From Cyanidioschyzon merolae (taxonomy: Eukaryota), in the NCBI GenBank assembly GCA_000091205.1, contig AP006501.2: a stretch of DNA of 64,000 nucleotides. One strand, given 5' to 3'. The stretch's first letter is position 1. Every line of letters starts with the position of its first letter. The position numbers were made by a program, and so were the translations under genes. The notes beneath the pieces are model-generated. The model searched no databases and was not told the origin of the DNA. It saw only the letters and a list, made by a program, of their open reading frames with translations. Below, in pieces: positions 6,449-51,555 of this stretch.

Positions 6449-6555
6449 GTCATCTGTCGGCACCTCGGGTATCACCGGAATGCATCTAGTGACGATGCTC
6501 CATCATTGAGAAATACCCTCTCATTCCTACTTTGAGCGCATCATCCATCAGCGCC

Positions 6556-8286: not shown

Positions 8287-8640
8287 TTCGCTCACCAAAC
8301 GTTTATGTTGTACCTGGATCCCTTATCGCGGGACGAGAACTGGCTATCGGGAAAACGCCCATCGTGATACGCCTCACCCTCAAGTTCCATTCCTTACAAT
8401 TCCTTTCGGATGTACTGGTCGTTTCATAGGTTGTAGCGAGCATCGAGTGCCCGTCGTGCTGCATCCACCTTGGCGCCTAGACAGCTGGTGCAGATGCACC
8501 TTAGAGACAGAACGGCTTTGCCGTACCACTGGGGGCTTCGGCTCGAGATGTGGTGCACCTGACACGGATTCGGAGTCCATCATCATGCTGGGGGCCTGGA
8601 AACTGCGCTGAAAGAGCTACCGTCTGCGGCAGCTCGAAGC
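8287..8640 (+). repeat. conserved ~300-nt structured module (copy 1). Candidate omega-RNA scaffold, element end or MITE
   Basis: Homologous to 38985-39338, 51556-51835, 56320-56620 (reverse complement) and partially to 18700-18790. Conserved core ggtgcagatgcacc ttagagacagaacgg ... gggcttcggctcgag, containing a hairpin GGTGCA-GA-TGCACC and a UUCG-type loop. Confidence 0.6.
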
Positions 8641-11616
8641 GACATGCCGGGAGTCCACTGCGACCAGGGCGACGCCCAGACGCAGCCTAACTGCTGCTCC
8701 TAGTCCCAGAGTCGACTGCGTTGCGGACGAGGTGTTCAGGTCGCACCACTGCACTAGGCACAGGTAAGGGCGTGAAGCACTAGTCTTGCAGACTCGTTCG
8801 GATTGCGGGACGTTTCGCCCTGAAGGCAAACTTTCGAAAGTATGGAAACCTTTTCGCCCTTTTAACGGCTACCGTGGAATGGGACAGGAATCGTTACATC
8901 GTTTCTCGTGAATCGTTCGTCTCTTTCCTTTTTTTCTCCGAATAGCGCGGTCGATAAGCACACCTGCGAGATCACGCAGTCACGAGAGACGACGCGCATG
9001 TCGCCGATGAAGGGAAACGCGTTTCTAACTATGCTCTGACCTATTGCCCTACCGTACATGTTGTATTCGAATTACAGGCGTAGCGGAGTACAGTTTTTTG
9101 AGTTCAATCGCGTTTGAAACGTCAAGTAAGCATATTCAAGTGATGCTGTGCGGTGTATAGGAGAAGCGTTCAATGTGCGTTCTTTCGCAGAAAAAATTCT
9201 AAAAAAGGAAAGTTATGAGAAAGCAAGTCGACGATCGCGGAGGCGCAGTGTCGCCGGCTGCCAGAAAAAGAACGAAAAACGGTGCCGAGCCCAGGAGCAC
9301 AGGCAAAGACGATGAAGCAGAAGCGGGAGGCCCTACGTCAAAGGCCGCGGGAAAGACAACAGTACGACGAGACGGTGGTGAAAGCGTACCTTCGTAAACA
9401 TATCAAGGATGCCTACAAGGAAAAGTTGCGAGAGGCCATCAGAAACCGTGTCGAGTCGTACTCCACGAGTACGAAGAAGGCTTCGTCAGGACTGATGCAT
9501 ATGATGAACGAGATGCACGACAACGCGACGGACACCAGAACAGTCGAGGTTCCGGGGGAATTTTTCAACAAGACCTTTGCTCGTCACCTGATGGTCGGCA
9601 CAGGGGAGCCGTCGACAAACAATGAGCGAGTGCACGCCTTCCACGAAAACTTCGCGGGATTCGGCTTCGAAGGTGCATCGATACAAGGGTTACGGGGATA
9701 TTCACATCTACGGGCCGATCGAGTACCTCGCGAACCTGAGGAACCATTTGACCATGAACCTCGAAGGTTTCATGATAAGCGCCGTGTTTGCGCTCTACCG
9801 GGGCCTCTCTCGCGGGGAAGAGATGGGCCATCTTCGCTGCCATCACCAACGATCGTCAGCATGAACAGGCAATAGAATTTGTCGACAAGATGACATCACG
9901 CAGGAGCATGAATGAAGCATATGTGATCGGTGCAGCTATTCAAGAGCGTCGTGGTGACACGGAGGTAGGGGGTTGGATAGATACTTCACCTCGCACTGAA
10001 AAAATATCACAAAAAGTAAGGAAAGTAAAATGCGCATAATCGGAGAACGCTGGCCCAAGTAAACGTTTTGTCCATGGAAAAAAAGAGCATCGTGAAGTCT
10101 TGGGGCTGGCCAACCCGACAGAAGACGTGTCAGATATGAAAAAAGTGAGAAAAGATGGTACCCCCGCATCCTGCGCTACTTCGTGTGTCTGGACCGAGAA
10201 CTCGAACGCAAGGCGGAGATGGTGCTGGGTGTGTGGAAAAATGAAGAGTCGCGGAGACGGAACGCTTTCCCAATGGGGAAGTGCTTCAACGTGGTTCCAA
10301 TGAGCAACATCAAGTCACATTTTGTGACTATCGACCAAGGCGTCCACTACGGCAACATGAGTGAGATCAGTCCGGTGTTCGGTGTCAGCAGGGAGGAGTT
10401 CACCGGTGAAAATCGGGAGACGTACCGGAAGAGTCTCTTCGGTTTCAAACGTCTCAAAGTGAGCAAGCAGAAGGTATTCACGGGGATGATCGGAACCGAT
10501 GGCGTAGCCACGTGTGTACGCTATCGGAGGTTTGAAGGCGGATTGTCCAGTTCGGCCTTCGATATCGCCCGTGACGAAGCATGAAGAAAACAGGGAGGAG
10601 GATCCTGCCACACAGAAAGTGCAGGATAACGACTTTGTCGTTGACGCGACGAAGCGTGAAGATGAGATGGAGGCGGGTCCTGCTACGCAGAAAGTGCAGG
10701 ATAACGACTTTGTCGTTAGTGCGGATCCCGGGAACACAAATATCATAACCATCGCAGTACCCAAGCGTGCGGAAGATGGTATCAACGGCAACCTACGTCA
10801 GACGGCCCTGCGAGTTTTAAGGTTCTCGTGAGCGGGATGCTATCGAGAATCCGGTATGATCAATGCGAGGAAGAAAATTGAGACACGGAATGCAGGAATG
10901 AAGGATCACCTGGAAGCTTTGCGCGGAGTAACGAGCAGAGGAGCAGGCTTTGAAGCTTTTCCGATATTCATGGAAGGTCGCGTTGCTCATTGGGATGCGC
11001 TGCTGGAGGAGTATACAAAGCCCCGGTGGGCTCGTCTGCGTATGAATCTGTACGGTGGTAAGCAGCGGGCATTCGCCAAATTTTTCAGTCAGTTGAGTGC
11101 CTTGAAGGAGGACGAGAGCCAGAGGCTGGTAGTGGCATACGGAGCAGGGCGTCCACAAAAGGGTGCACACCAGCTCCGTCGACGAGAACGTACAAAGCGT
11201 GTGCACGGCGCTTTGTAATGATACCGATTGATGAGCTCCGAACGTCCTATACACACCACGAACTGGGGTGCACACTTGAGACGGTCGACATGGAAAAGTG
11301 CCAGCGGAGTCCTGAAGATATGAAAAAGTATGGAGCGCTAACGGAGGAGCAAATGGACAGGAGGGCGAAAGTTCGTGGACTACTCGCATTAGTAAGTACA
11401 ATCAATGGCAAGAAACGCATGGAAATTGTTAACCGCGACTTTAACGCGGCTACCAATATAAGGAGGTGCGCGGTGATGGAGAGAAGACCTCCGTACTTGA
11501 CAAGAGGGAATTTTGTAGGGAAACCTCTCGAGGTGGAATTATACGAGAAAAAGTTGAAACCGGTAGTAGGTGGCCGGTCCAAAAACACTGGGATGCGTCG
11601 ACAAGTCTGTAGAAGA
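8287..11616 (+). mobile_element. Fanzor/TnpB-like (OMEGA RuvC nuclease) element, copy 1. Contains a 5' structured ~350-bp module and a frame-disrupted ~800-aa Fanzor-like gene
   Basis: About 99% identical to 38985-42308. Encodes RuvC-I-like [16 protein letters not shown], a TnpB-like DELRTSYTHHELGC (vdp.YTSq.C) and the RuvC-III signature NRDFNAATNIRRCAV. All family copies share a 3' terminus about 20 nt after the GGRSKK codons. Confidence 0.65.
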
Positions 11617-11628
11617 CTTTTCGTCTAG
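9215..11628 (+). pseudogene. Fanzor1-like TnpB-family nuclease gene, copy 1. It is frame-disrupted, with an extra in-frame TGA near 10829 that is absent in copy 2
   Basis: Consecutive ORFs 9215-9397, 9282-9875, 10183-10584, 10514-10831, 10856-11218 and 11218-11628 sit in different frames. N-terminus is K/R-rich and NLS-like (KRTKNGAEPRSTGKDD). RuvC-I is near 10709 and RuvC-III NRDFNAATNI near 11430. Confidence 0.55.
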
Positions 11629-12118
11629 GGCGCCGGTCACCACTACTTTGCACTACCGACCACAGCGTTTTTCTTTAGAAAGGCGTTTTTTGTCGGCGAT
11701 GTGAGGATTCTTTTACATGCTTAAAGTACTGCGTCAACCAGATCGAGTCCGTGTCTCGAGCTGAGCACTTCCGGTAGCGTCTGGTCGTCGGCCATTTGGG
11801 AGCACGCGCCCTAGACGAGCATCGTGTGTGTGGCATTACCTGTGTGGACCAGGTTTGTCAAGGGAAACAATTTCACGCTGAGTTCCAAAAGTTCGGTCCT
11901 TGTGTATTTTTGCTTGCCAGGAGCACAGGTCACCAGCAAGGAAGTTCGTGATCAGATACTGCCAAGATCCGACGAGTCGTGTAGCATCGTCCCGGAGATG
12001 TTAGGGCAGGCCCCCGAGCTACCACTCGCAAGCCACGCATTCGCCTCGCAGGTACGTGAATCATCGACAAGAAGCCGGATTCAATGGCACATCCTGAACA
12101 TCTCAGCAAATCGTGATC

Positions 12119-32327: not shown

Positions 32328-32458
32328 ACTCTAGAGTGTTGGGTGTATACGATGAAAAGGTGCTCAAACCGGTGCAGGCTTTCTTCATTTCTAGCGGATT
32401 CGATCACAAGACGTTGCCACTCGTTGACATCTTTCAACATTCCGAGAACGTAATCCCA

Positions 32459-33562: not shown

Positions 33563-33872
33563 GCAGTGTAGGTGCTAAGTCTAATGAGACCCGCCTGGTA
33601 TACGTTTGGGGCTCGCTTGTTCAGTGTTGCACCCAAACCGTTCAGAGAAACTGGGGCTACAGCGACTGGCGCTTCGCAGCAGCAATCTCGGCAAAGCGCC
33701 GCGATGGCGATACCCATCCGGGATGACTGTATACCGGTGGGTAGTGTACACGATCCTGGAACCCAAAACTTTCCTGCAGAGACGTTGCGGGTGTGCTCGA
33801 CTTCTCGCTTGACTGGCTCAGTGCCGAGGCCAGGGTCCACGCACTGCAGAAACGTCGCGGTTTCGAAGTATC

Positions 33873-34868
33873 ATGGTACCGGCGGGCACCCAGCAGGACT
33901 TTGCCGAGCAGGAAAACGTTTTGGTATACCACGGGCCCCTACTCTACGAGGCAAAAGTGCTTGAGGCCCTGGAGAGCCGTACAGAACCTGGAGCTCGTTG
34001 CTACTTGGTTCACTTCATCGGGTGGAATCGCTGCTACGACACCGTCGTCTCTCGAGAGGCAGTGCTTCCACGGACGTCAGCCAATCTGGAACTTGCTGAA
34101 CAACTTTATGTGGACTTTGTGGAAAAGCGCGGACCTGCTGCCACTGCTGCTGTTGAAGCAGCATCGCATACAACGCAGCGAATAGAGCGTGTCGCTCAGG
34201 GTAATACCGAAGCACCCCTGAGCGCGTCTACGACAGGATGTGAGTCGGCTATCTCCGCTGCTCATGTGCGTAACGATGAAGTTGTTATCGATGGTGAAGA
34301 TGATGTTGACGAGCACGTCGCCATCTATAACTGCCGGGGGCTGCGATCGATCCTAGAACACGTGGACCCAGACGATCCCCTGAGATGGTTCGAGTTGCCA
34401 ACGGTGCTGAAACGTACCGTTCTTGACGATTTCGAATACGTTTCCGAAAGTGGACGACTCTATCCTTTGCCAGCCCAAGTGACTGTGGCAGCCATCCTGC
34501 ACGCTTGGGTACGACATCGAAAGAGGACCCAGGATACGGATGCTGGTCAGATCCGAGCTCTTGCAGAGAGTCTCCAGCGCTATTTCAATGAGGCGCTGAG
34601 CAGCATGTTACTCTATGAGGATGAGCGACCGCAGTACGCAATGGTGACGACGTCGCATCCGGGAAAGCGTGCGAGTGAGATCTACGGTGGAGAGCATCTT
34701 CTTCGACTTATGGTGAAGCTGCCGTGGTTCCTCGAACAGTTGCCGATCACCAGAGACGAGGTTCGTCAGTTTGCACGCCTTTTCCAGGACCTCTGTCGCT
34801 TTTTGTTGCGCAATCATTACAGATTCTTTTCCGTTGTCGATGGAAGCGCCCTGGAGGAAAGCAGGTGA
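33873..34868 (+). CDS. MRG15/Eaf3-family chromatin protein (N-terminal chromo-barrel plus C-terminal MRG domain)
   Basis: The chromo-like block VLVYHGPLLYEAKVLEALE...YLVHFIGWNRCYDTVVSREAVL is a chromo-barrel. The C-terminal LPTVLKRTVLDDFEYV...LPAQVTVAAILHAWV is MRG-like. Confidence 0.7.
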   Translation: MVPAGTQQDFAEQENVLVYHGPLLYEAKVLEALESRTEPGARCYLVHFIGWNRCYDTVVSREAVLPRTSANLELAEQLYVDFVEKRGPAATAAVEAASHTTQRIERVAQGNTEAPLSASTTGCESAISAAHVRNDEVVIDGEDDVDEHVAIYNCRGLRSILEHVDPDDPLRWFELPTVLKRTVLDDFEYVSESGRLYPLPAQVTVAAILHAWVRHRKRTQDTDAGQIRALAESLQRYFNEALSSMLLYEDERPQYAMVTTSHPGKRASEIYGGEHLLRLMVKLPWFLEQLPITRDEVRQFARLFQDLCRFLLRNHYRFFSVVDGSALEESR

Positions 34869-35203
34869 AGTTGATTTCGTTCCGATGATGCCCGACGAGG
34901 CAGCATCGGAATCGAAGAGATCAATATGGCTGCAGCACGTGCGCTCTTCCATGCTTGGTGGCCGCATCCAGGGCAAATGCACTTCATGGAATGCAGTAGC
35001 AGCGAATAATACATCATAAAATAGGGGATACAGTATCTTTCATGCTTGACGGGGCACGGTATGCTAAAGTCTCGATTGCAGAATGTTTTCTATTCGACAG
35101 ACGTGCACCGTCAGAGAGATACCCTGAGCAAGCTCACAGTCCGCACCACCTGATCCCTTGGCCTGACTATAGTAGCCATCAGAGATGGTCGGGCAACTTT
35201 GTG

Positions 35204-36393
35204 ATTGTTTGACTCGGAATAATGAATTCTGAAACACCTGCATCAGCACGCCCTGTTTGTTTTTTCTACGGGTATTCAAGAGGAGTGTATCTTGCACACC
35301 GGAGAAAGGTCGCCGAACGACCTTATGTCGTCACTGCTTCCTCATGAGAAAGCCCGCTTTACTAGTGCACGGCAGACATTCTCCGGACAGCCTCGCTTCA
35401 CACACGAACAAGGCTCTCTGCAAAAAGAAGCCCTTTACAGCAATGCAGACCCGTCCCGGACTCCGAGCGCCCTCGCGCCCCCATCACTGGCATCGGGGTA
35501 CGACGGGCACCAGGCGGCACACCGGCATGTAGAGTGACGGTGCAAGGACCGTTCTCACCGGCCTGCGTAGCGTATCCAGCAGAGGCGCACGCCTTCTCGG
35601 CTTTATTCAGAGGTCGTCCGTGAGCGTCCAGACGTCTCATGCGGACGCTCTTCGGCATGTATGCATGAGACTGCGCTGGGCGGTCGCCAATGGTTTCGGT
35701 TGTACGCAGACAAGACGGGTGCGTTCCCCAAACGGCTCAGTGACGTGGGAAAGGAAACGACTGAGCAGTCGCGTCGTCCGGTGGGGAGCCCCATCGAGCG
35801 GCACCCGACGCGGCGCACGAGGCCTGTGATCCCGCTTCATCGACCGGAGCTTCCCGCGGGAGCAAGCATCGACGCTGCACTGTGCCCATCGATGCGTTCA
35901 GGGCGTTATGCAAGCGGCACCAGCACGGGCACACGCTGAGGCGGGCACAGAAGAAGAGCGCGAAACATGCGCGCTCGGATGCACCGGATGGTAAGCGATA
36001 AGCAGCGTGCACGTCAGACGCAGAGCCAATCGCAAGTAAGCGGCTCGATATCGCGTGATCCAGCAAGCAACCATGCGCGCAAGCACTCTCTGCATCACGA
36101 CTTTAATGCCTCGAGCGACATCCGCGAATGTCCGGTACTTCCAGAGCATCCAGTGAGTATTACGTCGAGCGAACCTTGCGGCAATCGTTTGGTACCCAGT
36201 GGGCGCATTCTGCTGCAATGCTGCGGACATCCGCCAAACAGAATACGAATCCATGGGAGAGCGGCATGTTTTGCCTTGGCGGATCACGGCACTGGTGTGG
36301 TGCTGCTCAGCAATGCGGAAAGCATTGAGCGCGGTACGGATACTCTGGGGACGATTTGCGTTGGCAATATCTGAAAGACAATAATGTTTCCAT
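35204..36393 (+). repeat. 1.19-kb direct repeat, copy B (partner 31138-32327)
   Basis: See copy A. The 2.9-kb spacer carries the RimM-like and MRG genes. Confidence 0.8.
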
Positions 36394-37363
36394 GTTCGGT
36401 GTTTCTGCTTGTATACAGGTCACGTCTTTTTCTTTGTTCGCGATTCGCCCAGTATTCATGCGGTATGCCAATGAAAGCAACTGGATCATCGAGTCAGGTA
36501 CTCGCGGAAGCCGGTCCAAGAAAACAGAGACGAGCTGTTCTTCGACATGAACAAGGCTAGGATCTATCACGTCGCTCTGTATGCTCCTACCTGTGCTCTG
36601 CTTGATGACGACACGAATACTGCCAAACATGGTATTCGAATGTTGCTCAACCTGCTAATTGCACTGGAAGTACGCGAACGTTCCCAACAAACCACATGAT
36701 GCCCTGAGGTTTAGCTTGTATATGTTGAACATGATATTTAAGTCGCATTGCTCAGCGTGTTTCGCAAAGATTTGGTGCGCTTTTGTCCGAATCGGCTGAA
36801 GGATCACGTCCCCGAAAACGTCACGAGTGAAAACTCGGTACGGAGGCACGCCCATGCTCGCGCACGGTACGGAGAAGGCGGGGCTCCCGACGCGTGGCGC
36901 CCTCAGGAGCTGCACAGTAGGCTGGCGTCAGTGGAACCTCCTGTTTCGGGCGCAGTCGTCATCGACGTCACCCTCGGTGATATAGCGTATCACTGATGAC
37001 GGCACTAGCTATCTTTGGGGTCGATACGGGCACGAGTGCAGAGCTGGAATCATCAAGACGCCCTTCAACCAGCGCGAAACGATCCCAGCATTCTATCTGT
37101 TGGAGCGCTCCACGCCCAGGGCCAACTGCATCCGGCACGCGCGCCGCTACGCCTACATTGCTAGTGTCCACGAATGCATAGTGCCGCGCTTACCAAGCGA
37201 TGCCTTCATCCAAGCAGAGTATTTATTGGAGTCAATGGTGCCATGAGTCCCTGTCGCGTTTGTACTGTAGTGCTGACACCCCAGATTATCAGTACTCTCG
37301 TAGGTGCTGCTCGACCAGCATCCATGGATGAACAGTGACGCACGAACCAAGTACCGTCTTGAT

Positions 37364-38860
37364 TTAAGCAGAGTATGCATTGGACGTGGTGGTGCCCCCA
37401 GTTCCCGTCCAGTTGGTATGGAAGTACTGATTCTCCGGCTTATCAATTCTCTCGTAAGTGTGCGCACCGAAATAGTCCCGCTGTGCTTGCAACAAGCTCG
37501 CCGGCAGGGTTTCCGCTCGGTATCCATCGTAAAATGCGAGCGCAGTGCTTATTGCCGGACACGTGATGCCGCGACTCACAGCAAACACCACAGCGTCGCG
37601 CCAGCTCTGCTGCGCAGCAAGTAGGGCATCGCGAAAGAAGCGATACAATAGCAAATTTTCCAAATTCGGCTCATCTTGGTAAGCTTCACGAATTTTGCCC
37701 AAAAAGCGACTGCGAATGATGCAACCCCCTCGCCACATGAGGGCAATGCCTCCATAGTTGAGATTCCAGTCTTCGGCTGCGGCGGCCTCTTTCATCAGCA
37801 TATAACCTTGGGCGTAGGAAACGATTTTGCTCGCGTAGAGCGCGAGCCGCAGCTTCTCGATCATGTTCTGGCGATCCTGCTCATTCAGGGGCGGCTGCGC
37901 CGGCGGCCCCTGCAGCACCTTGCTTGCCCGCACGCGTTCTGCCTTACGAGAGGAGAGCATCCGCGAGAATACAGCTTCCGCAATTAGTGTCACAGGAACG
38001 CTGTGCTCCAGGGACGACTCGACTGTCCATCGACCGGTGCCTTTCTGCTCTGCCTTGTCGAGTATAAGCGATACCAGCGGCTTACCGGTTTCATCGTCCT
38101 TGTACTTGAGGATGTTGGCCGTTATCTCGATCAGATACGAACATAGCTCCGTTTCATTCCATGCGGCGAAAATGTCTCCGCACTCCTCGACACTGAGGCC
38201 GAGACCCCGCCGCATGACATCATATACTTCGCTGATCAACTGCATATCGCCGTATTCGATGCCGTTATGGACCATCTTAACAAAGTGACCAGCGCCGCCA
38301 GAGCCGACCCAGTCACAGCATGGCTCGCCATCCGCTCTGGCCGCTATCGCCTGGAGCACCGGGCGCAAGAGCGGCCAGGCCGCTTCCGTTCCGCCAGGCA
38401 TGAGTGACGGACCATAGCGAGCGCCCTCTTCGCCGCCCGATACACCACACCCCACAAATAGCAGCCCGTGTTCGGCGCAGTGCTTCATCCGCCGGGTGCT
38501 ATCCTGGTAGTATGAGTTGCCACCGTCAACGATGACGTCGCCGGGATCCAAGTGTGGCTGGAGCTTCTCGATAAAGTCGTCGACAGCGGGACCTGCTCTG
38601 ACAAGCAAGATCACCTTGCGGGGCTTCTTAATGAGTGCACAAAACTCTTGTATCGTTCGGGCACCAAAAATCGTTTCTCGGTCCTTCGCAACGGTTTCCA
38701 GAAACTCTTGAACCTTGGACACCGTGCGATTGAAAACGGCCACTTTGAACCCGTGATCTGCCATGTTCAGAACAAGGTTCTGACCCATCACAGCAAGACC
38801 GATAAGACCTACATCAGCAACGGCCTGATTAGGGTGATCACTGTCCAACGCTTTGTTCAT
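37364..38860 (-). CDS. 6-phosphogluconate dehydrogenase (decarboxylating)
   Basis: VGLIGLAVMGQNLVLNMADHGFKVAVFNRT... is a Rossmann N-terminus, with a full-length 6PGDH C-terminal domain. The ORF opens with TTG; the first ATG (MNKALDSD) gives about 498 aa. Confidence 0.9.
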   Translation of the reverse strand: MNKALDSDHPNQAVADVGLIGLAVMGQNLVLNMADHGFKVAVFNRTVSKVQEFLETVAKDRETIFGARTIQEFCALIKKPRKVILLVRAGPAVDDFIEKLQPHLDPGDVIVDGGNSYYQDSTRRMKHCAEHGLLFVGCGVSGGEEGARYGPSLMPGGTEAAWPLLRPVLQAIAARADGEPCCDWVGSGGAGHFVKMVHNGIEYGDMQLISEVYDVMRRGLGLSVEECGDIFAAWNETELCSYLIEITANILKYKDDETGKPLVSLILDKAEQKGTGRWTVESSLEHSVPVTLIAEAVFSRMLSSRKAERVRASKVLQGPPAQPPLNEQDRQNMIEKLRLALYASKIVSYAQGYMLMKEAAAAEDWNLNYGGIALMWRGGCIIRSRFLGKIREAYQDEPNLENLLLYRFFRDALLAAQQSWRDAVVFAVSRGITCPAISTALAFYDGYRAETLPASLLQAQRDYFGAHTYERIDKPENQYFHTNWTGTGGTTTSNAYSA

Positions 38861-38984
38861 GGCTTGATCGTCACCAGTTGCTACCAGTACGCACTGTTGT
38901 TCGCCAAACGATCGAGAGGCGACGTCGATGAGCGCGTCAGCATCTGGCAATCGCGCCGACGCGCTCGAGTCGGTGACTTTTTTC

Positions 38985-39338
38985 GCTCACCAAACGTTTA
39001 TGTTGTACCTGGATCCCTTATCGCGGGACGAGAACTGGCTATCGGGAAAGCGCCCATCGTGATACGCCTCACCCTCAAGTTCCATTCCTTACAATTCCTT
39101 TCGGATGTACTGGTCGTTTCATGGGTTGTATCGAGCATCGAGTGCCCGTCGTGCTGCATCCACCTTGGCGCCTAGACAGCTGGTGCAGATGCACCTTAGA
39201 GACAGAACGGCTTTGCTGTACCACTGGGGGCTTCGGCTCGAGATGTGGTGCACCTGACACGGATTCGGAGTCCATCATCATGCTGGGGGCCTGGAAACTG
39301 CGCTGAAAGAGCTACCGTCTGCGGCAGCTCGAAGCGAC
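38985..39338 (+). repeat. conserved structured module, copy 2
   Basis: Near-identical to 8287-8640. Confidence 0.6.
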
Positions 39339-42308
39339 ATGCCGGGAGTCCACTGCGACCAGGGCGACGCCCAGACGCAGCCTAACTGCTGCTCCTAGTC
39401 CCAGAGTCGACTGCGTTGCGGACGAGGTGTTCAGGTCGCACCACTGCACTAGGCACAGGTAAGGGCGTGAAGCACTAGTCTTGCAGACTCGTTCGGATTG
39501 CGGGCCGTTTCGCCCTGAAGGCAAACTTTCGGAAGTATGGAAACCTTTTCGCCCTTTTAACGGCTACCGTGGAATGGGACAGGAATCGTTACATCGTTTC
39601 TCGTGAATCGTTCGTCTCTTTCCTTTTTTTCTCCGAATAGCGCGGTCGATAAGCACACCTGCGAGATCACGCAGTCACGAGAGACGACGCGCATGTCGCC
39701 GATGAAGGGAAACGCGTTTCTAACTATGCTCTGACCTATTGCCCTACCGTACATGTTGTATTCGAATTACAGGCGTAGCGGAGTACAGTTTTTTGAGTTC
39801 AATCGCGTTTGAAACGTCAAGTAAGCATATTCAAGTGATGCTGTGCGGTGTATAGGAGAAGCGTTCAATGTGCGTTCTTTCGCAGAAAAAATTCTAAAAA
39901 AAGGAAAGTTATGAGAAAGCAAGTCGACGATCGCGGAGGCGCAGTGTCGCCGGCTGCCAGAAAAAGAACGAAAAACGGTGCCGAGCCCAGGAGCACAGGC
40001 AAAGACGATGAAGCAGAAGCGGGAGGCCCTACGTCAAAGGCCGCGGGAAAGACAACAGTACGACGAGACGGTGGTGAAAGCGTACCTTCGTAAACATATC
40101 AAGGATGCCTACAAGGAAAAGTTGCGAGAGGCCATCAGAAACCGTGTCGAGTCGTACTCCACGAGTACGAAGAAGGCTTCGTCAGGACTGATGCATATGG
40201 TGAACGAGATGCACGACAACGCGACGGACACCAGAACAGTCGAGGTTCCGGGGGAATTTTTCAACAAGACCTTTGCTCGTCACCTGATGGTCGGCACAGG
40301 GGAGCCGTCGACAAACAATGAGCGAGTGCACGCCTTCCACGAAAACTTCGCGGGATTCGGCTTCGAAGGTGCATCGATACAAGGGTTACGGGGATATTCA
40401 CATCTACGGGCCGATCGAGTACCTCGCGAACCTGAGGAACCATTTGACCATGAACCTCGAACGTTTCATGATACGCGCCGTGTTTGCGCTCTACCGGGGC
40501 ATCTCTCGCGGGGAAGAGATGGGCCATCTTCGCTGCCATCACCAACGATCGTCAGCATGAACAGGCAATAGAATTTGTCGACAAGATGACATCACGCAGG
40601 AGCATGAATGAAGCATATGTGATCGGTGCAGCTATTCAAGAGCGTCGTGGTAACACGGAGGTAGGGGGTTGGATAGATACTTCACCTCGCACTGAAAAAA
40701 TATCACAAAAAGTAAGAAAAGTAAAATGCGCATAATCGGAGAACGCTGGCCCAAGTAAACGTTTTGTCCATGGAAAAAAGAGCATCGTGAAGTCTTGGGG
40801 CTGGCCAACCCGACAGAAGACGTGTCAGATATGAAAAAAGTGAGAAAAGATGGTACCCCCGCATCCTGCGCTACTTCGTGTTTCTGGACCGAGAACTCGA
40901 ACGCAAGGCGGAGATGGTGCTGGGTGTGTGGAAAAATGAAGAGTCGCGGAGACGGAACGCTTTCCCAATGGGGAAGTGCTTCAACGTGGTTCCAATGAGC
41001 AACATCAAGTCACATTTTGTGACTATCGACCAAGGCGTCCACTACGGCAACATGAGTGAGATCAGTCCGGTGTTCGGTGTCAGCAGGGAGGAGTTCACCG
41101 GTGAAAATCGGGAGACGTACCGGAAGAGTCTCTTCGGTTTCAAACGTCTCAAAGTGAGCAAGCAGAAGGTATTCACGGGGATGATCGGAACCGATGGCGT
41201 AGCCACGTGTGTACGCTATCGGAGGTTTGAAGGCGGATTGTCCAGTTCGGCCTTCGATATCGCCCGTAACGAAGCATGAAGAAAACAGGGAGGAGGATCC
41301 TGCCACACAGAAAGTGCAGGATAACGACTTTGTCGTTGACGCGACGAAGCGTGAAGATGAGATGGAGGCGGGTCCTGCTACGCAGAAAGTGCAGGATAAC
41401 GACTTTGTCGTTAGTGCGGATCCCGGGAACACAAATATCATAACCATCGCAGTACCCAAGCGTGCGGAAGATGGTATCAACGGCAACCTACGTCAGACGG
41501 CCCTGCGAGTTTTGAGGTTCTCGAGAGCGGGATGCTATCGAGAATCCGGTATGATCAATGTGAGGAAGAAAATTGAGACACGGAATGCAGGAATGAAGGA
41601 TCTCCTGGAAGCTTTGCGCGGAGTAACGAGCAGAGGAGCAGGCTTTGAAGCTTTTCCGATATTCATGGAAGGTCGCGTTGCTCATTGGGATGCGCTGCTG
41701 GAGGAGTATACAAAGCCCCGGTGGGCTCGTCTGCGTATGAATCTGTACGGTGGTAAGCAGCGGGCATTCGCCAAATTTTTCAGTCAGTTGAGTGCCTTGA
41801 AGGAGGACGAGAGCCAGAGGCTGGTAGTGGCATACGGAGCAGGGCGTCCACAAAAGGGTGCACACCAGCTCCGTCGACGAGAACGTACAAAGCGTGTGCA
41901 CGGCGCTTTGTAATGATACCGATTGATGAGCTCCGAACGTCCTATACACACCACGAACTGGGGTACACACTTGAGACGGTCGACATGGAAAAGTGCCAGC
42001 GGAGTCCTGAAGATATGAAAAAGTATGGAGCGCTAACGGAGGAGCAAATGGACAGGAGGGCGAAAGTTCGTGGACTACTCGCATTAGTAAGTACAATCAA
42101 TGGCAAGAAACGCATGGAAATTGTTAACCGCGACTTTAACGCGGCTACCAATATAAGGAGGTGCGCGGTGATGGAGAGAAGACCTCCGTACTTGACAAGA
42201 GGGAATTTCGTAGGGAAACCTCTCGAGGTGGAATTATACGAGAAAAAGTTGAAACCGGTAGTAGGTGGCCGGTCCAAAAAGAATGTGAGGCATCTGCACG
42301 TCGACTGG
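38985..42308 (+). mobile_element. Fanzor/TnpB-like element, copy 2 (more intact than copy 1)
   Basis: Same structure as copy 1: 5' module, NLS-like N-terminus, Ruv[18 protein letters not shown] near 41404-41451, and NRDFNAATNI near 42126-42155. Its left end is about 125 bp upstream of the 6PGDH ATG, and its right end about 150 bp upstream of the isoamylase ATG. Confidence 0.65.
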
Positions 42309-42344
42309 AGGCGCATTGTCGAAAGCGCGCCGCGCTCCCGTTAA
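39911..42344 (+). pseudogene. Fanzor1-like TnpB-family nuclease gene, copy 2. It has about 3 frame breaks and no internal stop in the 41209-41913 segment; either a recent pseudogene or intron-interrupted
   Basis: ORFs 39848-40093, 39978-40571, 40878-41279, 41209-41913 and 41913-42344. The C-terminal segment reads MIPIDELRTSYTHHELGYTLETVDMEKC...GKKRMEIVNRDFNAATNIRRCAV. HHELGY here versus HHELGC in copy 1. Confidence 0.55.
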
Positions 42345-42455
42345 GCGCCAGTGCGCAGAAGAATTTCCTTCGGTTTCGAGGTATATTGAGAAGGGTCGCG
42401 TTCGTTCTGTGTAGAAAGCTGGACTGTGGCGACTCTCTCGGTCAGTTTTAAAGTT

Positions 42456-45371
42456 ATGCATCGAGTACGCTCCCGTGCGTCGTTCTCTAACCGCTCTAGT
42501 GAAGACCTCGTTCAGGTGCCGCCGGGTCTTGAGTTGGACGAAGAGGAGCTCGCGCTCCTGGAGCAACAGCGCCAGCTCGAGAACGCCTTAGCACGACACG
42601 AGCACGGCAATGTTCCCCGATCTCTTTCTCGACGCATCCTGGACTATATGGTCCAGAGCAGCGACGGCGCTGATCTGAGAACGAATCAGTCAATTCTGGG
42701 CACGGAGTCGAGGGCGTTTCCGGAATGGAGCACGTTTCAGCGCCCGGTAGCACGGAAGGGTCCACGATACGACGAGCTTCGACTGGGCGAGCTACTTGTA
42801 CGACGTGGTCACCCGTTGCCGTACGGCGTGAGCCTGAGCCCGGAGGGCACGAATTTCGCTATTTTCACAGATGAGGAGGAGCATGTGGCCCTGATCCTTT
42901 ATCCGGCCAAGTCGCGGCGTCAGCTAAGGCACGAGCGTTTGCAGTCTGCAGCTGCTGCATCTATCGAAAGCGCCACGCCTGTGACCTCGAATACTGAGAA
43001 GTCCGCACCCAAGACAGACTCTCACAGTGGCGAGCATGTCATGGACAAACAAACCGAAACTGCACCACCCAGCGACGCATCGCAAGAGACGGGTGCGAGA
43101 GAAAGTTCCGAGAGCACGCCCGCTAGGACAGAGTCTGCTGCTTCTGCGCTGTTGCGCAGGAATCGGGCGCCGTTTATCGTTCGCGAGAGCAGCACGGACG
43201 ACGAGGACCGCTTTGAAGACGTCCGTTCGAACGCTGGTAGCACCGGCGGAAGCACACCGCGAGCGATGAGCGAAGGCCTCGAAGATCCCAGTAACAACGA
43301 TGCGGTGATGACCACGAGCGCGCTCCAGAGCAGCACAAGGCAAGCAAAGTCGGTACTGGCTACCGCACAAATTTTACCGCATCAGAGCGGACTGCTCTTC
43401 CCGATGGATTGGTTTTTACCGGTCCCAAGTATTGACGACGCAAAACCTCTAATTATCGAACTTGATCCTGTCATCCATCGAACAGGCCATGTTTGGCACG
43501 TACAGATCGCCCCAAATGTGGAACATTATGCCTATGCATGGCGCATCGGCGATCGACCAACGCGCTGGGGCTCAAACATCGTCCTCGATCCATACGCTAA
43601 ATGCGTTTTCTCTCCACCGAGTGCGGATTTCAACCGCCCACCGGGACCTTATCGGCCGATTTGTGGTGTTCCCGCTATTGGAGAACTCGATTTCGACTGG
43701 GATGGCGTCCTTCCTCCACGGTATCCGTTTAAGGACTTGATCATCTATGAGCTGCATGTGAGAGGTCTCACAAAGCAGACTACTTCGCCCTATGCGGGTA
43801 CCTACCTGGGCGTCATTGAAAAGATACCGTACTTGAAGCAACTCGGTATCAATGCAGTTGAATTGATGCCTTGCGCCGAATTCAACGAGACCGAATGGGA
43901 CATGCGAAATCCGAGCACCGGCGAACGATTGTGTCAGTTCTGGGGCTACTCACCGATCTCTTTTTTTGCGCCCATGAATCGTTATGCGATGCAGGGCTTT
44001 ACCTCGGCTGTGCGGGAATTCAAAACCATGGTTCGCGAGCTGCATCGCCACGGCATCGAGGTCATCCTTGATGTGGTTTTCAACCACACCGGGGAGTTTG
44101 GAGACGACGGACCGCCGCCCCTCTTTTACCACTTCAAAGGCCTCGCGCTGAGTACTTATTATATTCTGGATAGGAAGAATCAGTTTGCAAACTATAGCGG
44201 GTGTGGCAATTCGCTCAGTGCGAATCACGTTGTCACTGCGGAGTTCATCCATGAGTGTGTTCGGTACTGGGCTCTGGAGATGGGTGTCGACGGCTTTCGC
44301 TTTGACTTGGCTGCAGTGATGTGTCGAGACCCGCAAGGTCAGCCCATGGCGAGTCCGCCGGTAATCGAGCGGCTCAGCAAAGATCCCTGCTTACGGCACT
44401 TGAAACTGATCGCAGAACCATGGGATCTGGGTCAGTACCTGGTCGGACATTTTCCACATTACGGGTGCTGGGCGGAGTGGAATGGTCGCTTTCGAGACAC
44501 GGTACGGCGTTTCATTAAGGGAGATCCGCATCTGATCGGTGACTTTGCAACCCGTCTATGCGGCTCAGAGGATCTCTACGCGAACGGACGACGTCCGTGG
44601 CACTCCATCAACTTTGTCACCGCTCATGATGGATTCACCCTCTACGACCTGGTTTCCTACGCCGAAAAACATAACTGGGATAATGGTGAGGAAAACCAGG
44701 ACGGTGAAAGCCACAACAATAGCTGGAACTGCGGCTTCGAAGGCGACGGGACCCCGAATCCGAACATTTTCTTCCTGCGGCAGAAGCAGATGCGCAACTT
44801 TCTGGTAGCGTTGCTGATATCGACGGGTACCCCAATGGTGCTTATGGGTGATGAGTATGGCCATACACGTCGCGGAAATAATAACGCCTGGTGCCAGGAC
44901 AACGAGCTGAACTACATGGATTGGGATAAGGTTGCTCGCGATGAACGGGGTCTGGTTCGGTTCACGCGCCTCATGATCCTGTTCCGGCGGGTGAACACCT
45001 TCCTCTGTCGTCAGAACTTCGTCACCAGACACGACGTGAGCTGGATCCATGCCGACTGGAGTAGTGCCTACAACTTCCTGGTGATGAGAATCATCGATCC
45101 CGGAAACGATGACTTGCTGGTGGGGTTTAATGCCGGTCCCGAGCGGCGCACGGTCACTGTACCACCGCTGTCGAGCGATCGCCAGTGGCTCCGCATCGTG
45201 GACACCAATCTGGCTCCGCCGTTGGATTTCTGTAACGGAGATAATCCAACCAAGATCTACGGCACCTACGTCATGCAACCCTGGAGTTCGATTATTCTCC
45301 AGAGCCACCGCCGCAGCGTGCTCATCCAGAGCTTGGAAGAACACCTTCGCGGACGCGAAGCAGCCTCCTAG
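42456..45371 (+). CDS. isoamylase-type starch/glycogen debranching enzyme (GH13 with N-terminal CBM48)
   Basis: GHPLPYGVSLSPEGTNFAIFT (CBM48), GYSPISFFAP, VILDVVFNHTGE, and VDGFRFDLAAVM (catalytic region). The ORF opens with GTG; first ATG at 42456. Confidence 0.85.
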   Translation: MHRVRSRASFSNRSSEDLVQVPPGLELDEEELALLEQQRQLENALARHEHGNVPRSLSRRILDYMVQSSDGADLRTNQSILGTESRAFPEWSTFQRPVARKGPRYDELRLGELLVRRGHPLPYGVSLSPEGTNFAIFTDEEEHVALILYPAKSRRQLRHERLQSAAAASIESATPVTSNTEKSAPKTDSHSGEHVMDKQTETAPPSDASQETGARESSESTPARTESAASALLRRNRAPFIVRESSTDDEDRFEDVRSNAGSTGGSTPRAMSEGLEDPSNNDAVMTTSALQSSTRQAKSVLATAQILPHQSGLLFPMDWFLPVPSIDDAKPLIIELDPVIHRTGHVWHVQIAPNVEHYAYAWRIGDRPTRWGSNIVLDPYAKCVFSPPSADFNRPPGPYRPICGVPAIGELDFDWDGVLPPRYPFKDLIIYELHVRGLTKQTTSPYAGTYLGVIEKIPYLKQLGINAVELMPCAEFNETEWDMRNPSTGERLCQFWGYSPISFFAPMNRYAMQGFTSAVREFKTMVRELHRHGIEVILDVVFNHTGEFGDDGPPPLFYHFKGLALSTYYILDRKNQFANYSGCGNSLSANHVVTAEFIHECVRYWALEMGVDGFRFDLAAVMCRDPQGQPMASPPVIERLSKDPCLRHLKLIAEPWDLGQYLVGHFPHYGCWAEWNGRFRDTVRRFIKGDPHLIGDFATRLCGSEDLYANGRRPWHSINFVTAHDGFTLYDLVSYAEKHNWDNGEENQDGESHNNSWNCGFEGDGTPNPNIFFLRQKQMRNFLVALLISTGTPMVLMGDEYGHTRRGNNNAWCQDNELNYMDWDKVARDERGLVRFTRLMILFRRVNTFLCRQNFVTRHDVSWIHADWSSAYNFLVMRIIDPGNDDLLVGFNAGPERRTVTVPPLSSDRQWLRIVDTNLAPPLDFCNGDNPTKIYGTYVMQPWSSIILQSHRRSVLIQSLEEHLRGREAAS

Positions 45372-45798
45372 ACACTGTAAAATGTTGATGAAACCTCGCT
45401 GTGAAGTCGGATGGCTTGATTCAGGGAACAAATCCCTTGTACAGCGTCGCTGTCGATATCGAAGTGGTGCCTCATGATCCAGAAGCAGGAATGCAGCATC
45501 AGCGGACCGTTTCACGTGCCACCAACTACACTACGTGCACATGAGGCAGCTTTGTGGCGGGGGTTTTCCAGCGCCGTCCGCGATCGCTACCAACGGTATG
45601 CCTGCTGCGCACCGGTAAATACCAACGCAGTAGGCTCAGCTGTGTTCGCTATAGCAGTGGTACCTTTTTGGGCAGTATCATTGAGAAATTCCTGACCACG
45701 GTGAACGCGACGGCTGCGTGTCGCCGTGAAAGCGTCGTATATTTGGACAGTGCGAGTAGGAAACTCACGTGTGCAAAACGAGGTATATACGTATGGGA

Positions 45799-45907
45799 AT
45801 GCATGCATGCATGCATGCATGCAAAAACACGTGTCTATGCGAATGAAAGCACGCATGGTATCGAAGCTTTTCACGTATGTGAGTGCATGCATGCATGCAT
45901 GCATGCA
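45799..45907. repeat. paired (CATG)n/(TGCA)n microsatellite blocks in the convergent intergenic region
   Basis: gaatgcatgcatgcatgcatgcatgca and, about 60 bp on, gtgcatgcatgcatgcatgcatgcac seen directly between the isoamylase (+) and PWP2 (-) 3' ends. Confidence 0.8.
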
Positions 45908-46090
45908 CTCACAAACGCGTAGCCATAAACATAAAAACCAATAACACTGAGGTCTACATGATTTTACCGCAGCGGCTTCGAGGCTATCGGCAAGCGCAGC
46001 AAGTCGTAGCGGTATGCACATGGTACATAGCCACAAAGCGCGGTATCAGCACCGGCTGAGACGAGAGCTGCTTTCGCATGCCCTTCTCTC

Positions 46091-51404: not shown

Positions 51405-51555
51405 ACGGCTGTTGCCCTGCGCGTCCTATTGTACGTTCCCAGGGCGACACGTCCCGCGAACCCCGCTGGCTCACAGAAGCAGAAACCGGAGGGGTGCGCT
51501 CCACGCTGCCGGATCCGCCTCCGCGTCGAGCACATCGCTGCGTTTTTGCTCAGTT

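What the first reader, a model, noticed from the sequence alone, without database searches (positions are those of the whole stretch)
38985..42308. Two near-identical ~3.3-kb Fanzor/TnpB-like (OMEGA RuvC nuclease) elements in a eukaryotic nuclear locus
Seen in sequence: 8287-11616 and 38985-42308 are about 99% identical. Each encodes an ~800-aa product spread over 4-6 frame-shifted ORFs with the hallmark TnpB/Cas12 RuvC motifs. RuvC-I is [16 protein letters not shown] (D-P-G). The TnpB-like block before the zinc finger is IDELRTSYTHHELGC (compare V.P.YTSQ.C..CG). RuvC-III is NRDFNAATNIRRCAV (compare DxDxNAAxNI). The N-terminus is K/R-rich and NLS-like, as expected for eukaryotic Fanzor1. The canonical RuvC-II EDL is not visible (VVAYGAG instead), consistent with the rearranged RuvC-II reported for Fanzor1. 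The frame breaks fall at the same places in both copies. Copy 1 has one extra TGA (ttctcgTGAgcg versus ttctcgAGAgcg in copy 2). Copy 2 has HHELGY where copy 1 has HHELGC. So the breaks are either shared introns or inherited frameshifts from a very recent duplication or transposition. If expressed, this is a candidate RNA-guided nuclease system in this organism.
Basis: partly seen in the sequence, partly recalled or inferred. Interest (0 to 1): 0.9.

Follow-up and report, generated by a model that had tools for sequence, protein, structure and literature searches.

The report
Two dead copies of known Fanzor transposon

Summary
The window is Cyanidioschyzon merolae 10D chromosome 19. Both repeats align end to end, at 83% identity, with the published CMe-1A consensus (Bao & Jurka 2013), whose single-exon ORF encodes the Fanzor1 protein CMe-1.

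I tested Fanzor1 membership independently. A 55-sequence family profile hits only the three solved Fanzor1 proteins in PDB (E 5.5e-24 to 1.7e-13). A confident AlphaFold model (pLDDT 82.5) matches only Fanzor1 structures at E<=0.001 (best 3e-16). The DPG aspartate, the relocated glutamate and the RuvC-III residues around its aspartate are invariant; that aspartate is conserved in at least 90% of sequences.

The frame breaks are not introns. They are five 1-bp indels, a 7-bp deletion and a 130-bp retroposon insertion with a 10-bp target duplication, and two independent metagenome assemblies share them. Both copies are pseudogenes.

Their near-identity most likely reflects gene conversion between two old insertions. 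Both loci are occupied in other strains. The identical tract stops about 100 bp before the element end, where identity falls to 55%. Informative sites group the copies by strain, not by locus.

Verdict: already known, low interest.

The parts
8289..11685 (+). Copy 1 of the CMe-1A element, full length relative to the 3169-bp published consensus
   Evidence: Aligns to consensus positions 1-3169 at 83.4% nt identity. The orthologous copy is present in metagenome contig L002.
38984..42397 (+). Copy 2 of the CMe-1A element. The 3' boundary is uncertain: clear homology to the consensus runs to about 42329 (consensus 3116), with a weak match to about 42397.
   Evidence: Aligns to consensus 1-3116 at 82.6% nt identity. 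The orthologous copy is present in metagenome contig L003.
38980..42280 (+). The 99.3%-identity tract shared with 8285-11585, interpreted as a gene-conversion tract (consensus 1 to about 3067)
   Evidence: Identity starts at the element's first base and collapses to 55% in the next 49 nt.
38984..39627 (+). 5' module equal to TE-N2_CMe (consensus 1 to about 638), a separate short repeat fused to the Fanzor unit. In copy 1 it is 8289-8932.
   Evidence: Bao & Jurka report that the 5' 635 bp equals TE-N2_CMe. Copies L005, L007 and L012 lack it and start at consensus about 641.
39911..42344 (+). Disrupted Fanzor1 (CMe-1) coding region of copy 2. In copy 1 it is 9215-11628. Frame changes lie at 39966 (+1), 40373 (+1), 40514 (+1), the insert 40650-40779 (140 nt extra in total, counting one 10-bp TSD copy), 40840 (-1), 41223 (+1) and 41847 (-7). 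The stop codon is mutated in copy 2.
   Evidence: Codon-wise projection onto the single-exon consensus ORF gives 555/734 identical residues. tblastn of CMe-1 hits seven to eight pieces per copy across all three frames.
40650..40779 (-). 130-bp retroposon-like mini-element inserted in the ORF, flanked by the 10-bp target duplication GAGCRTCGTG (40640-40649 and 40780-40789). In copy 1 it is 9954-10084.
   Evidence: It is 88.6% identical to the free copy at 52355-52468, which has a perfect 14-bp TSD.
41269..41412 (+). In-frame 75-bp tandem duplication, a 25-aa acidic repeat in the linker just before RuvC-I. In copy 1 it is 10570-10717.
   Evidence: The repeat number varies from none to several among relatives.
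41407..41454 (+). RuvC-I motif [16 protein letters not shown] (catalytic D in DPG)
   Evidence: D484 and G486 are invariant in the 55-sequence family alignment.
41824..41844 (+). VVAYGAG strand: the position of the lost canonical RuvC-II glutamate, replaced by Gly
   Evidence: G623 invariant. Literature.
41922..41963 (+). IDELRTSYTHHELG: the relocated RuvC-II glutamate (Ealt), followed by a degenerate zinc-finger region
   Evidence: E656 is invariant. It aligns to the DEYKTS motif of SpuFz1 and the DEFRTS motif of PpFz1.
42126..42170 (+). RuvC-III motif NRDFNAATNIRRCAV
   Evidence: R724, N727, A729 and N731 are invariant and D725 is conserved in at least 90% of sequences.
11586..11685 (+). Unconverted 3' tail of copy 1, with the family right end ...GAAAGGCG followed by a TTTT/TTTG flank. 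The matching tail of copy 2 is 42281 to about 42397.

Best explanation
Both repeats are copies of CMe-1A, the Fanzor1-carrying transposable element family of the red alga Cyanidioschyzon merolae 10D. Here they lie 30.7 kb apart on chromosome 19.

At family level, by homology to SpuFz1, GtFz1 and PpFz1 and not shown here, the single-exon gene encodes an RNA-guided RuvC endonuclease of about 734 aa. It would use D (DPG), a relocated E (DEFRTS) and D (RDFNAA). It would be guided by an RNA transcribed from the element's 3' end, and by analogy with TnpB it would help the element persist.

The two copies in this window are dead relics. They share five 1-bp indels, a 7-bp deletion and a 130-bp retroposon insertion inside the ORF. 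Copy 1 also has a nonsense codon.

Their 99.3% identity is most likely the product of ectopic gene conversion between two old, independently inserted copies. The conversion homogenised consensus positions 1 to about 3067 and left the last roughly 100 bp at their old divergence. Family identity and pseudogene status are shown. Gene conversion is inferred (about 0.65). Nuclease and guide-RNA function of the family is inferred from homologs.
For: Organism: six window ORFs are exactly identical to annotated C. merolae 10D proteins BAM82805 to BAM82820 on a 1.28-Mb record.

Family: both copies align over the whole 3169-bp CMe-1A consensus at 83% identity, and to the CMe-1 protein at 553-555 of 734 residues after frame correction. 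This matches the published figure of about 150 copies, each about 80% identical to the consensus.

Fanzor1 membership:
- hhalign of the family against Chlamydomonas, Volvox and Chlorella Fanzor1 gives probability 99%, E 2.4e-18.
- The 55-sequence profile hits only PpFz1 (E 5.5e-24), SpuFz1 (E 2e-17) and GtFz1 (E 1.7e-13) in PDB.
- The AF2 model has pLDDT 82.5 and pTM 0.80. Its top seven Foldseek hits are all Fanzor1, with E 3e-16 and TM 0.72-0.73.
- The catalytic columns are invariant, except the RuvC-III aspartate, which is conserved in at least 90% of sequences.

Pseudogenes: the frame changes are 1-bp or 7-bp indels relative to a single-exon consensus. The same indels are present in independent metagenome assemblies L002 and L003, with 3176 of 3177 columns gap-free.

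Gene conversion:
- Both loci are occupied at orthologous positions in other strains.
- The identity tract starts at the element's first base and ends inside the element. In the next 49 nt the copies differ at 22 sites (P=5e-35 at the tract's rate), while each is still 76-78% identical to the consensus.
- Informative sites split 6 (by strain) to 1 (by locus) to 2.
- The paralog distance of 0.60% is below both ortholog distances, 0.69% and 1.16%.
Against: - Pfam and NCBIfam give no significant hit on the window ORFs or on single family members.
- phmmer and the shallow 15-sequence profile found nothing in PDB.
- The canonical CxxC...CxxC zinc finger is absent from CMe-1.
- The gene-conversion inference rests on only 9 informative sites, and L002 and L003 come from different samples.
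- A third, unseen donor copy elsewhere in the genome cannot be excluded.
- A guide RNA was not demonstrated: the 3' region folds with z = -2.4, but the conserved 11-bp stem shows almost no covariation.
Confidence: 0.87

Rival explanations
1. A very recent transposition or copy event. An already frameshifted, non-autonomous CMe-1A copy was mobilised in trans and inserted at the second locus, giving two 99% identical copies.
For: The identity begins exactly at the family's left terminus and the left flanks are unrelated, as expected for an insertion rather than a segmental duplication. The family has about 150 copies, so it has been mobile.
Against: Identity ends about 100 bp before the right end, yet both copies continue to match the consensus there at 76-78% while being only 55% identical to each other. 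A fresh copy should be identical through to its end. Both loci are already occupied in other strains. The informative sites group copies by strain, 6:1:2. No target-site duplication was found for either copy.
Confidence: 0.2
2. The frame breaks are introns, or sequencing errors, and each locus encodes a functional Fanzor1 nuclease.
For: The catalytic motifs D, E and D are all intact in both copies. The 130-bp insert happens to start with GT and end with AG, and its removal would keep the frame.
Against: Six of the seven frame changes are 1-bp or 7-bp indels relative to a single-exon consensus ORF, far too short to be introns. Copy 1 has an in-frame TGA. The same indels occur in two independent environmental assemblies, so they are not errors. 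From general knowledge, the C. merolae nuclear genome has only about 27 introns. Neither locus is in the annotated proteome (protein 8; one search returned no NCBI-sourced hit).
Confidence: 0.02
3. CMe-1A is a non-autonomous derivative of a non-LTR (LINE-type) retrotransposon that carries the Fanzor1 gene antisense at its 5' end and moves by target-primed reverse transcription.
For: - The element's left end (the TE-N2 terminus) is preceded by a T-run, which is poly(A) on the other strand, in copy 1, copy 2 and L001.
- A 115-130-bp element sharing that terminus has T-runs inside perfect or near-perfect TSDs of 14 and 10 bp. This is the signature of retroposition with 5' truncation.
- In L005 a 1270-bp 5'-truncated LINE 3' end, and in L007/L008 a LINE body with RVT_1 ORFs, abut the same Fanzor left boundary head to head.
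- Jiang 2023 reports a Fanzor1c-LINE association.
Against: - L012 has the Fanzor unit with the same left boundary and no retroelement next to it.
- L006 lacks the T-run.
- No TSD was found for any full-length copy.
- All copies share one sharp right end followed by TTTG-like flanks. That fits a defined DNA end better than variable 5' truncation.
- TE-N2 matches the LINE 3' UTR only over about 200 nt at 72%.
Confidence: 0.15

Closest known systems
CMe-1A element / CMe-1 Fanzor1 protein of Cyanidioschyzon merolae (Bao & Jurka 2013, Mob DNA 4:12, PMC3627910)
   Same: Same organism and same family. The match covers the full 3169-bp consensus at 83% identity and includes the TE-N2_CMe 5' module. 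No TIRs and no detectable TSDs were found, and divergence from the consensus is about 80%, as published.
   Different: These two copies carry disabling indels, a nested 130-bp retroposon and a 75-bp internal duplication that are absent from the consensus. They are 99.3% identical to each other, whereas the family is described as old and diverged.
SpuFz1, GtFz1 and PpFz1: structurally and biochemically characterised Fanzor1 RNA-guided endonucleases (PDB 8GKH, 9CER, 9CF0)
   Same: Same fold (Foldseek E about 1e-16, TM 0.72 to SpuFz). The profile match covers the WED/REC and RuvC regions. They share the DPG RuvC-I, a Gly at the canonical RuvC-II position, the relocated glutamate in DE[FY][RK]TS, and RDxNAAxN RuvC-III.
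   Different: Only 12-15% sequence identity. CMe-1 lacks the CxxC...CxxC zinc finger and has a disordered acidic repeat linker before RuvC-I. No guide RNA or activity is shown for CMe-1, and the window copies are pseudogenes.
Prokaryotic TnpB (ISDra2; PDB 8EXA, 8H1J) and Fanzor2 (mimivirus; 9B0L)
   Same: Distant homology of the RuvC/TNB core. The algal Fanzor1 profile reaches TnpB at E 0.004 and Fanzor2 at 8.6e-8. 13 of 55 family members touch Pfam Cas12f1-like_TNB.
   Different: TnpB has the canonical RuvC-II glutamate and a D-hydrophobic-G RuvC-I, is about 400 aa, and sits in IS200/IS605 or IS607 elements with TnpA. CMe-1A has no transposase gene.
Concerted evolution of dispersed repeats by ectopic gene conversion (as in yeast Ty elements or human segmental duplicates)
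   Same: A high-identity tract bounded by the limit of homology on one side and ending inside the repeat on the other. Paralogs within a strain are closer to each other than orthologs between strains.
   Different: Only two loci and nine informative sites are available, and the donor and direction are unknown.

Membership tests
CMe-1A transposable element family (C. merolae) | Full-length nucleotide homology to the published 3169-bp consensus, in the same host genome | tested here: met
   Copy 1 covers consensus 1-3169 and copy 2 covers 1-3116, at 83% identity. The host is identified as C. merolae 10D by six exact protein matches.
CMe-1A transposable element family (C. merolae) | 5' 635 bp equal to TE-N2_CMe; no TIRs; TSDs not detectable | tested here: met
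   The 5' module is present. No inverted termini were reported. No TSD of 9 nt or more abuts the ends.
Fanzor1 | RuvC-I catalytic Asp in a DPG motif | tested here: met
   SADPGNTN is at 10712-10759 / 41407-41454. D484 and G486 are invariant and P485 is conserved in at least 90% of 55 family sequences. The criterion comes from Yoon 2023.
Fanzor1 | Canonical RuvC-II Glu replaced by Gly or Pro, with an alternative conserved Glu about 45 residues downstream, just before the zinc-finger position | tested here: met
   VVAYGAG (G623 invariant) and IDELRTS (E656 invariant) lie 33 residues apart in P0207 numbering. The criterion comes from Jiang 2023 and Yoon 2023.
Fanzor1 | RuvC-III Asp in RDxNAAxNI | tested here: met
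   NRDFNAATNI is at 11431-11475 / 42126-42170. R724, N727, A729 and N731 are invariant and D725 is at least 90% conserved.
Fanzor1 | CxxC...CxxC zinc finger (TNB domain) between RuvC-II and RuvC-III | tested here: not met
   CMe-1 has YTHHELGC...EKC and no CxxC pair. Only 13 of 55 wider family members match Pfam Cas12f1-like_TNB. This clade has a degenerate finger. Bao & Jurka nevertheless file CMe-1 under Fanzor1.
Fanzor1 | Significant sequence-profile homology to experimentally validated Fanzor1 proteins | tested here: met
   The A3 profile hits PpFz1 at 5.5e-24, SpuFz1 at 2e-17 and GtFz1 at 1.7e-13, with no other PDB hit at E<=1. hhalign to algal Fanzor1 gives probability 99%.
Fanzor1 | Fanzor1 three-dimensional fold | tested here: met
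   The AF2 model has pLDDT 82.5. The Foldseek top seven are all Fanzor1 (E 3e-16 to 8e-14, TM 0.72-0.73 to SpuFz). The next hit, Cas12X, is at E 1e-2. The model is of the intact relative P0207, not of the window pseudogene.
Fanzor1 | Intact open reading frame | tested here: not met
   Both window copies have seven frame changes. Copy 1 also has a TGA, and copy 2 has lost the stop codon.
Fanzor1 | Structured guide (omega) RNA encoded at the 3' end of the element | tested here: inconclusive
   The 3' 241 nt of copy 1 fold with z = -2.36. An 11-bp stem between the ORF end and the 3' UTR is conserved in 10 copies, but the covariation term is +0.73. There is no Rfam match.
Fanzor1 | RNA-guided, TAM-dependent double-strand DNA cleavage | not testable with these tools
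   This needs biochemistry with a reconstructed intact protein and its RNA.
Non-LTR retroposon (for the 130-bp insert and the TE-N2 terminus) | Poly(A) tail at one end, variable-length target-site duplications, 5' truncation series, related RT-encoding element | tested here: met
   This is met for the mini-element only. The T-run lies inside TSDs of 14 bp (52355-52468) and 10 bp (40650-40779). A longer version is continuous with a LINE 3' end in L005, and RVT_1 ORFs are present in L001 and L007. It is not met for the full CMe-1A copies.

The most novel reading that the evidence does not exclude
The Fanzor1 unit of C. merolae (consensus about 641-3169) may be coupled to non-LTR retroelements. 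In three different configurations (TE-N2, a 1.27-kb truncated LINE 3' end, and a LINE body with RT ORFs) a retroelement abuts the same Fanzor left boundary head to head, with its poly(A) end pointing away. The composite TE-N2+Fanzor has spread as a unit. Two readings fit this. CMe-1A could be a retrotransposed, antisense-Fanzor derivative of a LINE. Alternatively, retroelement cDNAs could be repeatedly captured at breaks next to the Fanzor left end. Either reading would give the 'unclassified' CMe-1A a mobility mechanism.
Probability: 0.15. Interest if true: 0.5.

Novelty: already known. Interest (0 to 1): 0.18.

Why it matters
It matters little as a discovery. The family, its Fanzor1 protein and its presence in this genome were published in 2013, and Fanzor1 biochemistry was established in 2023.

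The check has three uses. It shows that a reader working from sequence alone recognised a very divergent RuvC nuclease that Pfam and NCBIfam miss. It settles that these two loci are pseudogenes, so they are not editing-tool candidates. It adds two small points to the record: a case of concerted evolution between dispersed Fanzor relics in a very compact genome, and a lead that the unclassified CMe-1A element is physically associated with LINE-type retroelements.

Tried and rejected
- Pfam and NCBIfam scans of the six window ORF pieces found no relevant hit.
- Pfam scans of single intact relatives gave nothing above threshold, only a faint Cas12f1-like_TNB match at E 0.23.
- phmmer of the repaired C-terminal half and the 15-sequence profile found nothing in PDB. 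Only the deeper 55-sequence profile worked.
- The first AlphaFold run, with a 15-sequence alignment, gave pLDDT 56 and was discarded.
- The intron hypothesis was rejected because the breaks are 1-bp and 7-bp indels relative to the single-exon consensus.
- Segmental duplication was rejected because the flanks are unrelated.
- Sequencing error was rejected because independent assemblies share the indels.
- TSD searches for the full-length copies found nothing convincing.
- Rfam found nothing, at gathering thresholds over the whole window and at E<=1 over copy 2.
- RNAalifold on 6 and then 10 copies of the 3' end gave no covariation support.
- L002, which first looked like a third copy of the same sublineage, turned out to be the ortholog of the copy 1 locus.
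- The T-run at the left end as a universal feature was rejected because L006 lacks it.
Full report
OBSERVATION. A self-comparison of the window finds one long direct repeat, 8285-11585 vs 38980-42280. It spans 3302 aligned columns at 99.33% identity, with 20 substitutions and two 1-nt indels. The 3' ends are about 30 nt too far. The coding signal is spread over eight segments in three frames.

ORGANISM. Six long ORFs of the window are letter-for-letter identical to annotated proteins of Cyanidioschyzon merolae strain 10D (BAM82805 to BAM82820, CMS locus tags) on a 1,282,939-bp record. The window is therefore nuclear chromosome 19 of this red alga. The neighbouring genes are ordinary housekeeping genes:
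- actin and an RRM protein around copy 1;
- 6-phosphogluconate dehydrogenase (named from the ORF translation) and an isoamylase-like ORF (named from its sequence only, not profile-tested) around copy 2.

IDENTITY OF THE REPEAT. Bao & Jurka (2013, PMC3627910) described the element CMe-1A in exactly this genome. It has a 3169-bp consensus and about 150 copies, each about 80% identical to the consensus, with no TIRs and undetermined TSDs. Its 5' 635 bp equal another repeat, TE-N2_CMe. It encodes a single-exon 734-aa Fanzor1 protein, CMe-1. I took the consensus DNA and protein from their supplementary files. Copy 1 aligns to consensus positions 1-3169 (window 8289-11685). Copy 2 aligns to positions 1-3116 (38984-42329), with a weak match to about 42397. 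Both are 83% identical in nucleotides. After frame correction they match CMe-1 at 553 and 555 of 734 residues. The finding is thus two members of a published family in the genome where it was described.

INDEPENDENT TEST OF THE FANZOR CALL.
- Direct scans fail. Pfam and NCBIfam give nothing for the window ORFs or for intact relatives. phmmer and a shallow profile find nothing in PDB.
- Homology searches returned more than 200 relatives from JGI and ENA metagenomes. These include near-full-length ORFs (P0207, 752 aa) and distant ones at 31-43% identity.
- An exhaustive profile search found 3497 cluster representatives at E<=1e-3.
- A 55-sequence alignment (A3) has as invariant columns D484 and G486 (DPG), G623 (AYG), E656 (DEFRT), and R724, N727, A729 and N731; D725 (RDxNAAxN) is conserved in at least 90% of sequences.
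- The A3 profile hits exactly three PDB sequences, all Fanzor1: PpFz1 (E 5.5e-24), SpuFz1 (E 2e-17) and GtFz1 (E 1.7e-13). The alignments run from the WED/REC region to the C-terminus.
- A profile-profile comparison with the published Chlamydomonas, Volvox and Chlorella Fanzor1 proteins gives 99% probability, E 2.4e-18. That algal profile itself reaches SpuFz1 (8e-16), Fanzor2 (8.6e-8) and ISDra2 TnpB (0.004).
- With A3 as input, AlphaFold gives a confident model (pLDDT 82.5, pTM 0.80). Its top seven Foldseek matches in PDB are all Fanzor1 (E 3e-16 to 8e-14, TM 0.72-0.73 against SpuFz). Cas12 variants and Fanzor2 follow at E>=1e-2.
- The literature criteria are met: DPG in RuvC-I, loss of the canonical RuvC-II glutamate to Gly or Pro, and a relocated glutamate just before the zinc-finger position (Jiang 2023 and Yoon 2023).
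- The one typical feature not met is the CxxC...CxxC zinc finger, which is degenerate in this clade. 13 of 55 wider family members still touch Pfam Cas12f1-like_TNB.

INTRONS OR FRAMESHIFTS. Relative to the single-exon consensus ORF (consensus 906-3110), both copies carry the same lesions:
- +1 at consensus 960, 1366 and 1506;
- an insertion of 140 nt (copy 2) or 141 nt (copy 1) at 1629;
- -1 at 1693;
- +1 at 2075;
- an in-frame +75 tandem duplication at 2136;
- -7 at 2625;
- -3 at 2884.
One-base and seven-base changes cannot be introns. The 140-nt insertion is a 130-bp element (40650-40779, minus strand) flanked by a 10-bp direct repeat, GAGCGTCGTG / GAGCATCGTG. Copy 1 also has a TGA, and copy 2 has lost the stop codon. 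The same indels are present in two independent environmental assemblies, with 3176 of 3177 columns gap-free, so they are not sequencing errors. Both copies are pseudogenes.

WHY ARE TWO OLD RELICS 99.3% IDENTICAL?
- The flanks are unrelated, and identity begins at the first base of the element. This excludes a segmental duplication.
- Identity stops at consensus about 3067, some 100 bp before the right end. In the next 49 nt the copies differ at 22 positions, where 0.3 would be expected (P=5e-35). Each copy is still 76-78% identical to the family consensus there. That is the pattern of two independently diverged old copies homogenised over part of their length.
- Metagenome contigs give the orthologous loci of other strains. 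L002 covers window 4570-11462 with copy 1 (99.17%). L003 covers window 32456-51811 with copy 2 (99.3%). Both insertions therefore predate the divergence of these strains.
- Among the four sequences, the within-10D paralog distance (0.60%) is below both ortholog distances (0.69% and 1.16%). The nine informative sites split 6 (by strain) to 1 (by locus) to 2.
- I conclude that ectopic gene conversion is the most likely cause (about 0.65). Recent copying of a dead element in trans is the main rival (about 0.2). The data set is small and a third donor copy cannot be excluded.

ANATOMY AND LIKELY MECHANISM OF THE FAMILY.
- Ten further copies from metagenome contigs show that the Fanzor unit proper starts at a sharp common boundary near consensus 641 (...GCATCGCGGTCGATACG). 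It ends at ...GAAAGGCG, usually followed by TTTG/TTTT. The 5' 635 bp of CMe-1A is a separate module.
- The 3' UTR segment CGCCACTACTGTAC is almost invariant and can pair with GCAGTAGTAGGTGG at the end of the ORF. This 11-bp stem is kept in 10 copies, but there is essentially no covariation. The fold z-score is only -2.4.
- A guide RNA overlapping the ORF end, as in TnpB and Fanzor, is therefore plausible but not shown.
- By homology, an intact CMe-1 would form an RNP with that RNA and cut TAM-flanked DNA matching the flank-derived guide, using D484, E656 and D725. This is inference from SpuFz1, GtFz1 and PpFz1 and was not tested here.

SIDE LEAD: RETROELEMENTS.
- The 130-bp insert has a free relative at 52355-52468 with a perfect 14-bp TSD (CACGCACTTGCAGG). 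In both, a T-run lies inside the TSD next to the motif CATGGACAAAACGTTTAC, which is also the CMe-1A/TE-N2 left terminus.
- In L005 the same terminus continues into a 1270-bp 5'-truncated LINE 3' end, 89.7% identical to an element with RVT_1 ORFs in L001. In L007/L008 a LINE body with RT ORFs lies head to head against the same Fanzor left boundary.
- L012 has the Fanzor unit without any retroelement, L006 lacks the T-run, and no TSD flanks the full-length copies. Coupling is therefore unproven.
- Jiang 2023 already notes a Fanzor1c-LINE association.

VERDICT. The elements are already known, both copies are non-functional, and interest is low. The small additions are gene conversion between the relics and the LINE-adjacency lead.

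Noticed in passing
window 52355-52468 (+); also 40650-40779 (-) and 9954-10084 (-): A SINE-like mini-element of about 115-130 bp. It begins with a T-run and the CMe-1A/TE-N2 terminal motif, and is flanked by a perfect 14-bp TSD (CACGCACTTGCAGG) or a 10-bp TSD. It looks like a 5'-truncated retroposed copy of a LINE 3' tail.
   Followed up: partly
L005:2396-3671, L007:1-3350, L008:1-1111, L001:9800-12786: A non-LTR retrotransposon with RVT_1 ORFs, or its truncated 3' end, lies head to head against the left boundary of the Fanzor unit in two independent loci. In CMe-1A the same position is occupied by TE-N2_CMe. L012 has the boundary with no retroelement.
   Followed up: partly
window 14324-15675 and 19527-20878: A 1352-nt inverted repeat, 99.6% identical by BLAST and 100% by the ungapped repeat finder. 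Each arm carries the 316-aa hypothetical protein CMS509C. This is another very recent duplication or conversion in the same 64-kb region.
   Followed up: no
window 31138-32324 and 35204-36390: A 1187-nt direct repeat (98.7%) bracketing the RimM-like and MRG/alp13-like genes. The strain of contig L003 also carries a match to it (L003 2749-3935).
   Followed up: no
window 51555-51811 and 56329-56585: 257-nt inverted arms (97%). Both are TE-N2_CMe-like 5' modules in opposite orientation, enclosing 4.5 kb with a 403-aa ORF and a DUF1499 gene. The copy on the minus strand extends to 55969 (consensus 4-615).
   Followed up: partly
window 27878-28135 (-), 51835-52075 (-), 63180-63523 (-): Three short relics of a more diverged Fanzor1 C-terminus (47-58% aa identity to CMe-1 residues about 612-726). 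They belong to a second repeat family (27874-28392 vs 51831-52345, 71%).
   Followed up: no
window 41269-41412 / 10570-10717; relatives P0003, P0004, P0207, P0213: The 25-aa acidic repeat (..[22 protein letters not shown]..) just before RuvC-I is a variable-number tandem repeat. Relatives carry from none to several copies. It is disordered in the AF2 model (residues 375-469).
   Followed up: partly
right ends of 9 independent copies (window 11685; L005, L006, L007, L009, L011 x2, L012 x2): The published consensus ends at GAAAGGCG, but most copies continue with TTTG(T/G)T or GTGGTGGTG. The true right end may lie a few bases further out, or there may be a T-rich target preference. The left flank is usually a T-run.
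   Followed up: partly
L011:1588-2600 (-) and 2597-3745 (+): Two CMe-1A 3' halves (consensus about 2100-3169) are joined head to head as a palindrome in a metagenome contig.
   Followed up: no
window 45789-45917: A segment of about 119-129 nt downstream of the isoamylase-like gene matches several overlapping positions about 84 nt apart in L003 and L004. This looks like a tandem repeat whose copy number differs between strains.
   Followed up: no
cons 3044-3056 / 3123-3136 (window 11561-11575 / about 11637-11650): An 11-bp pairing between the last codons of the ORF (GCAGTAGTAGGTGG) and the 3' UTR (CGCCACTACTG) is conserved in 10 copies. It has almost no covariation. It is a candidate guide-RNA or right-end structure.
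   Followed up: partly
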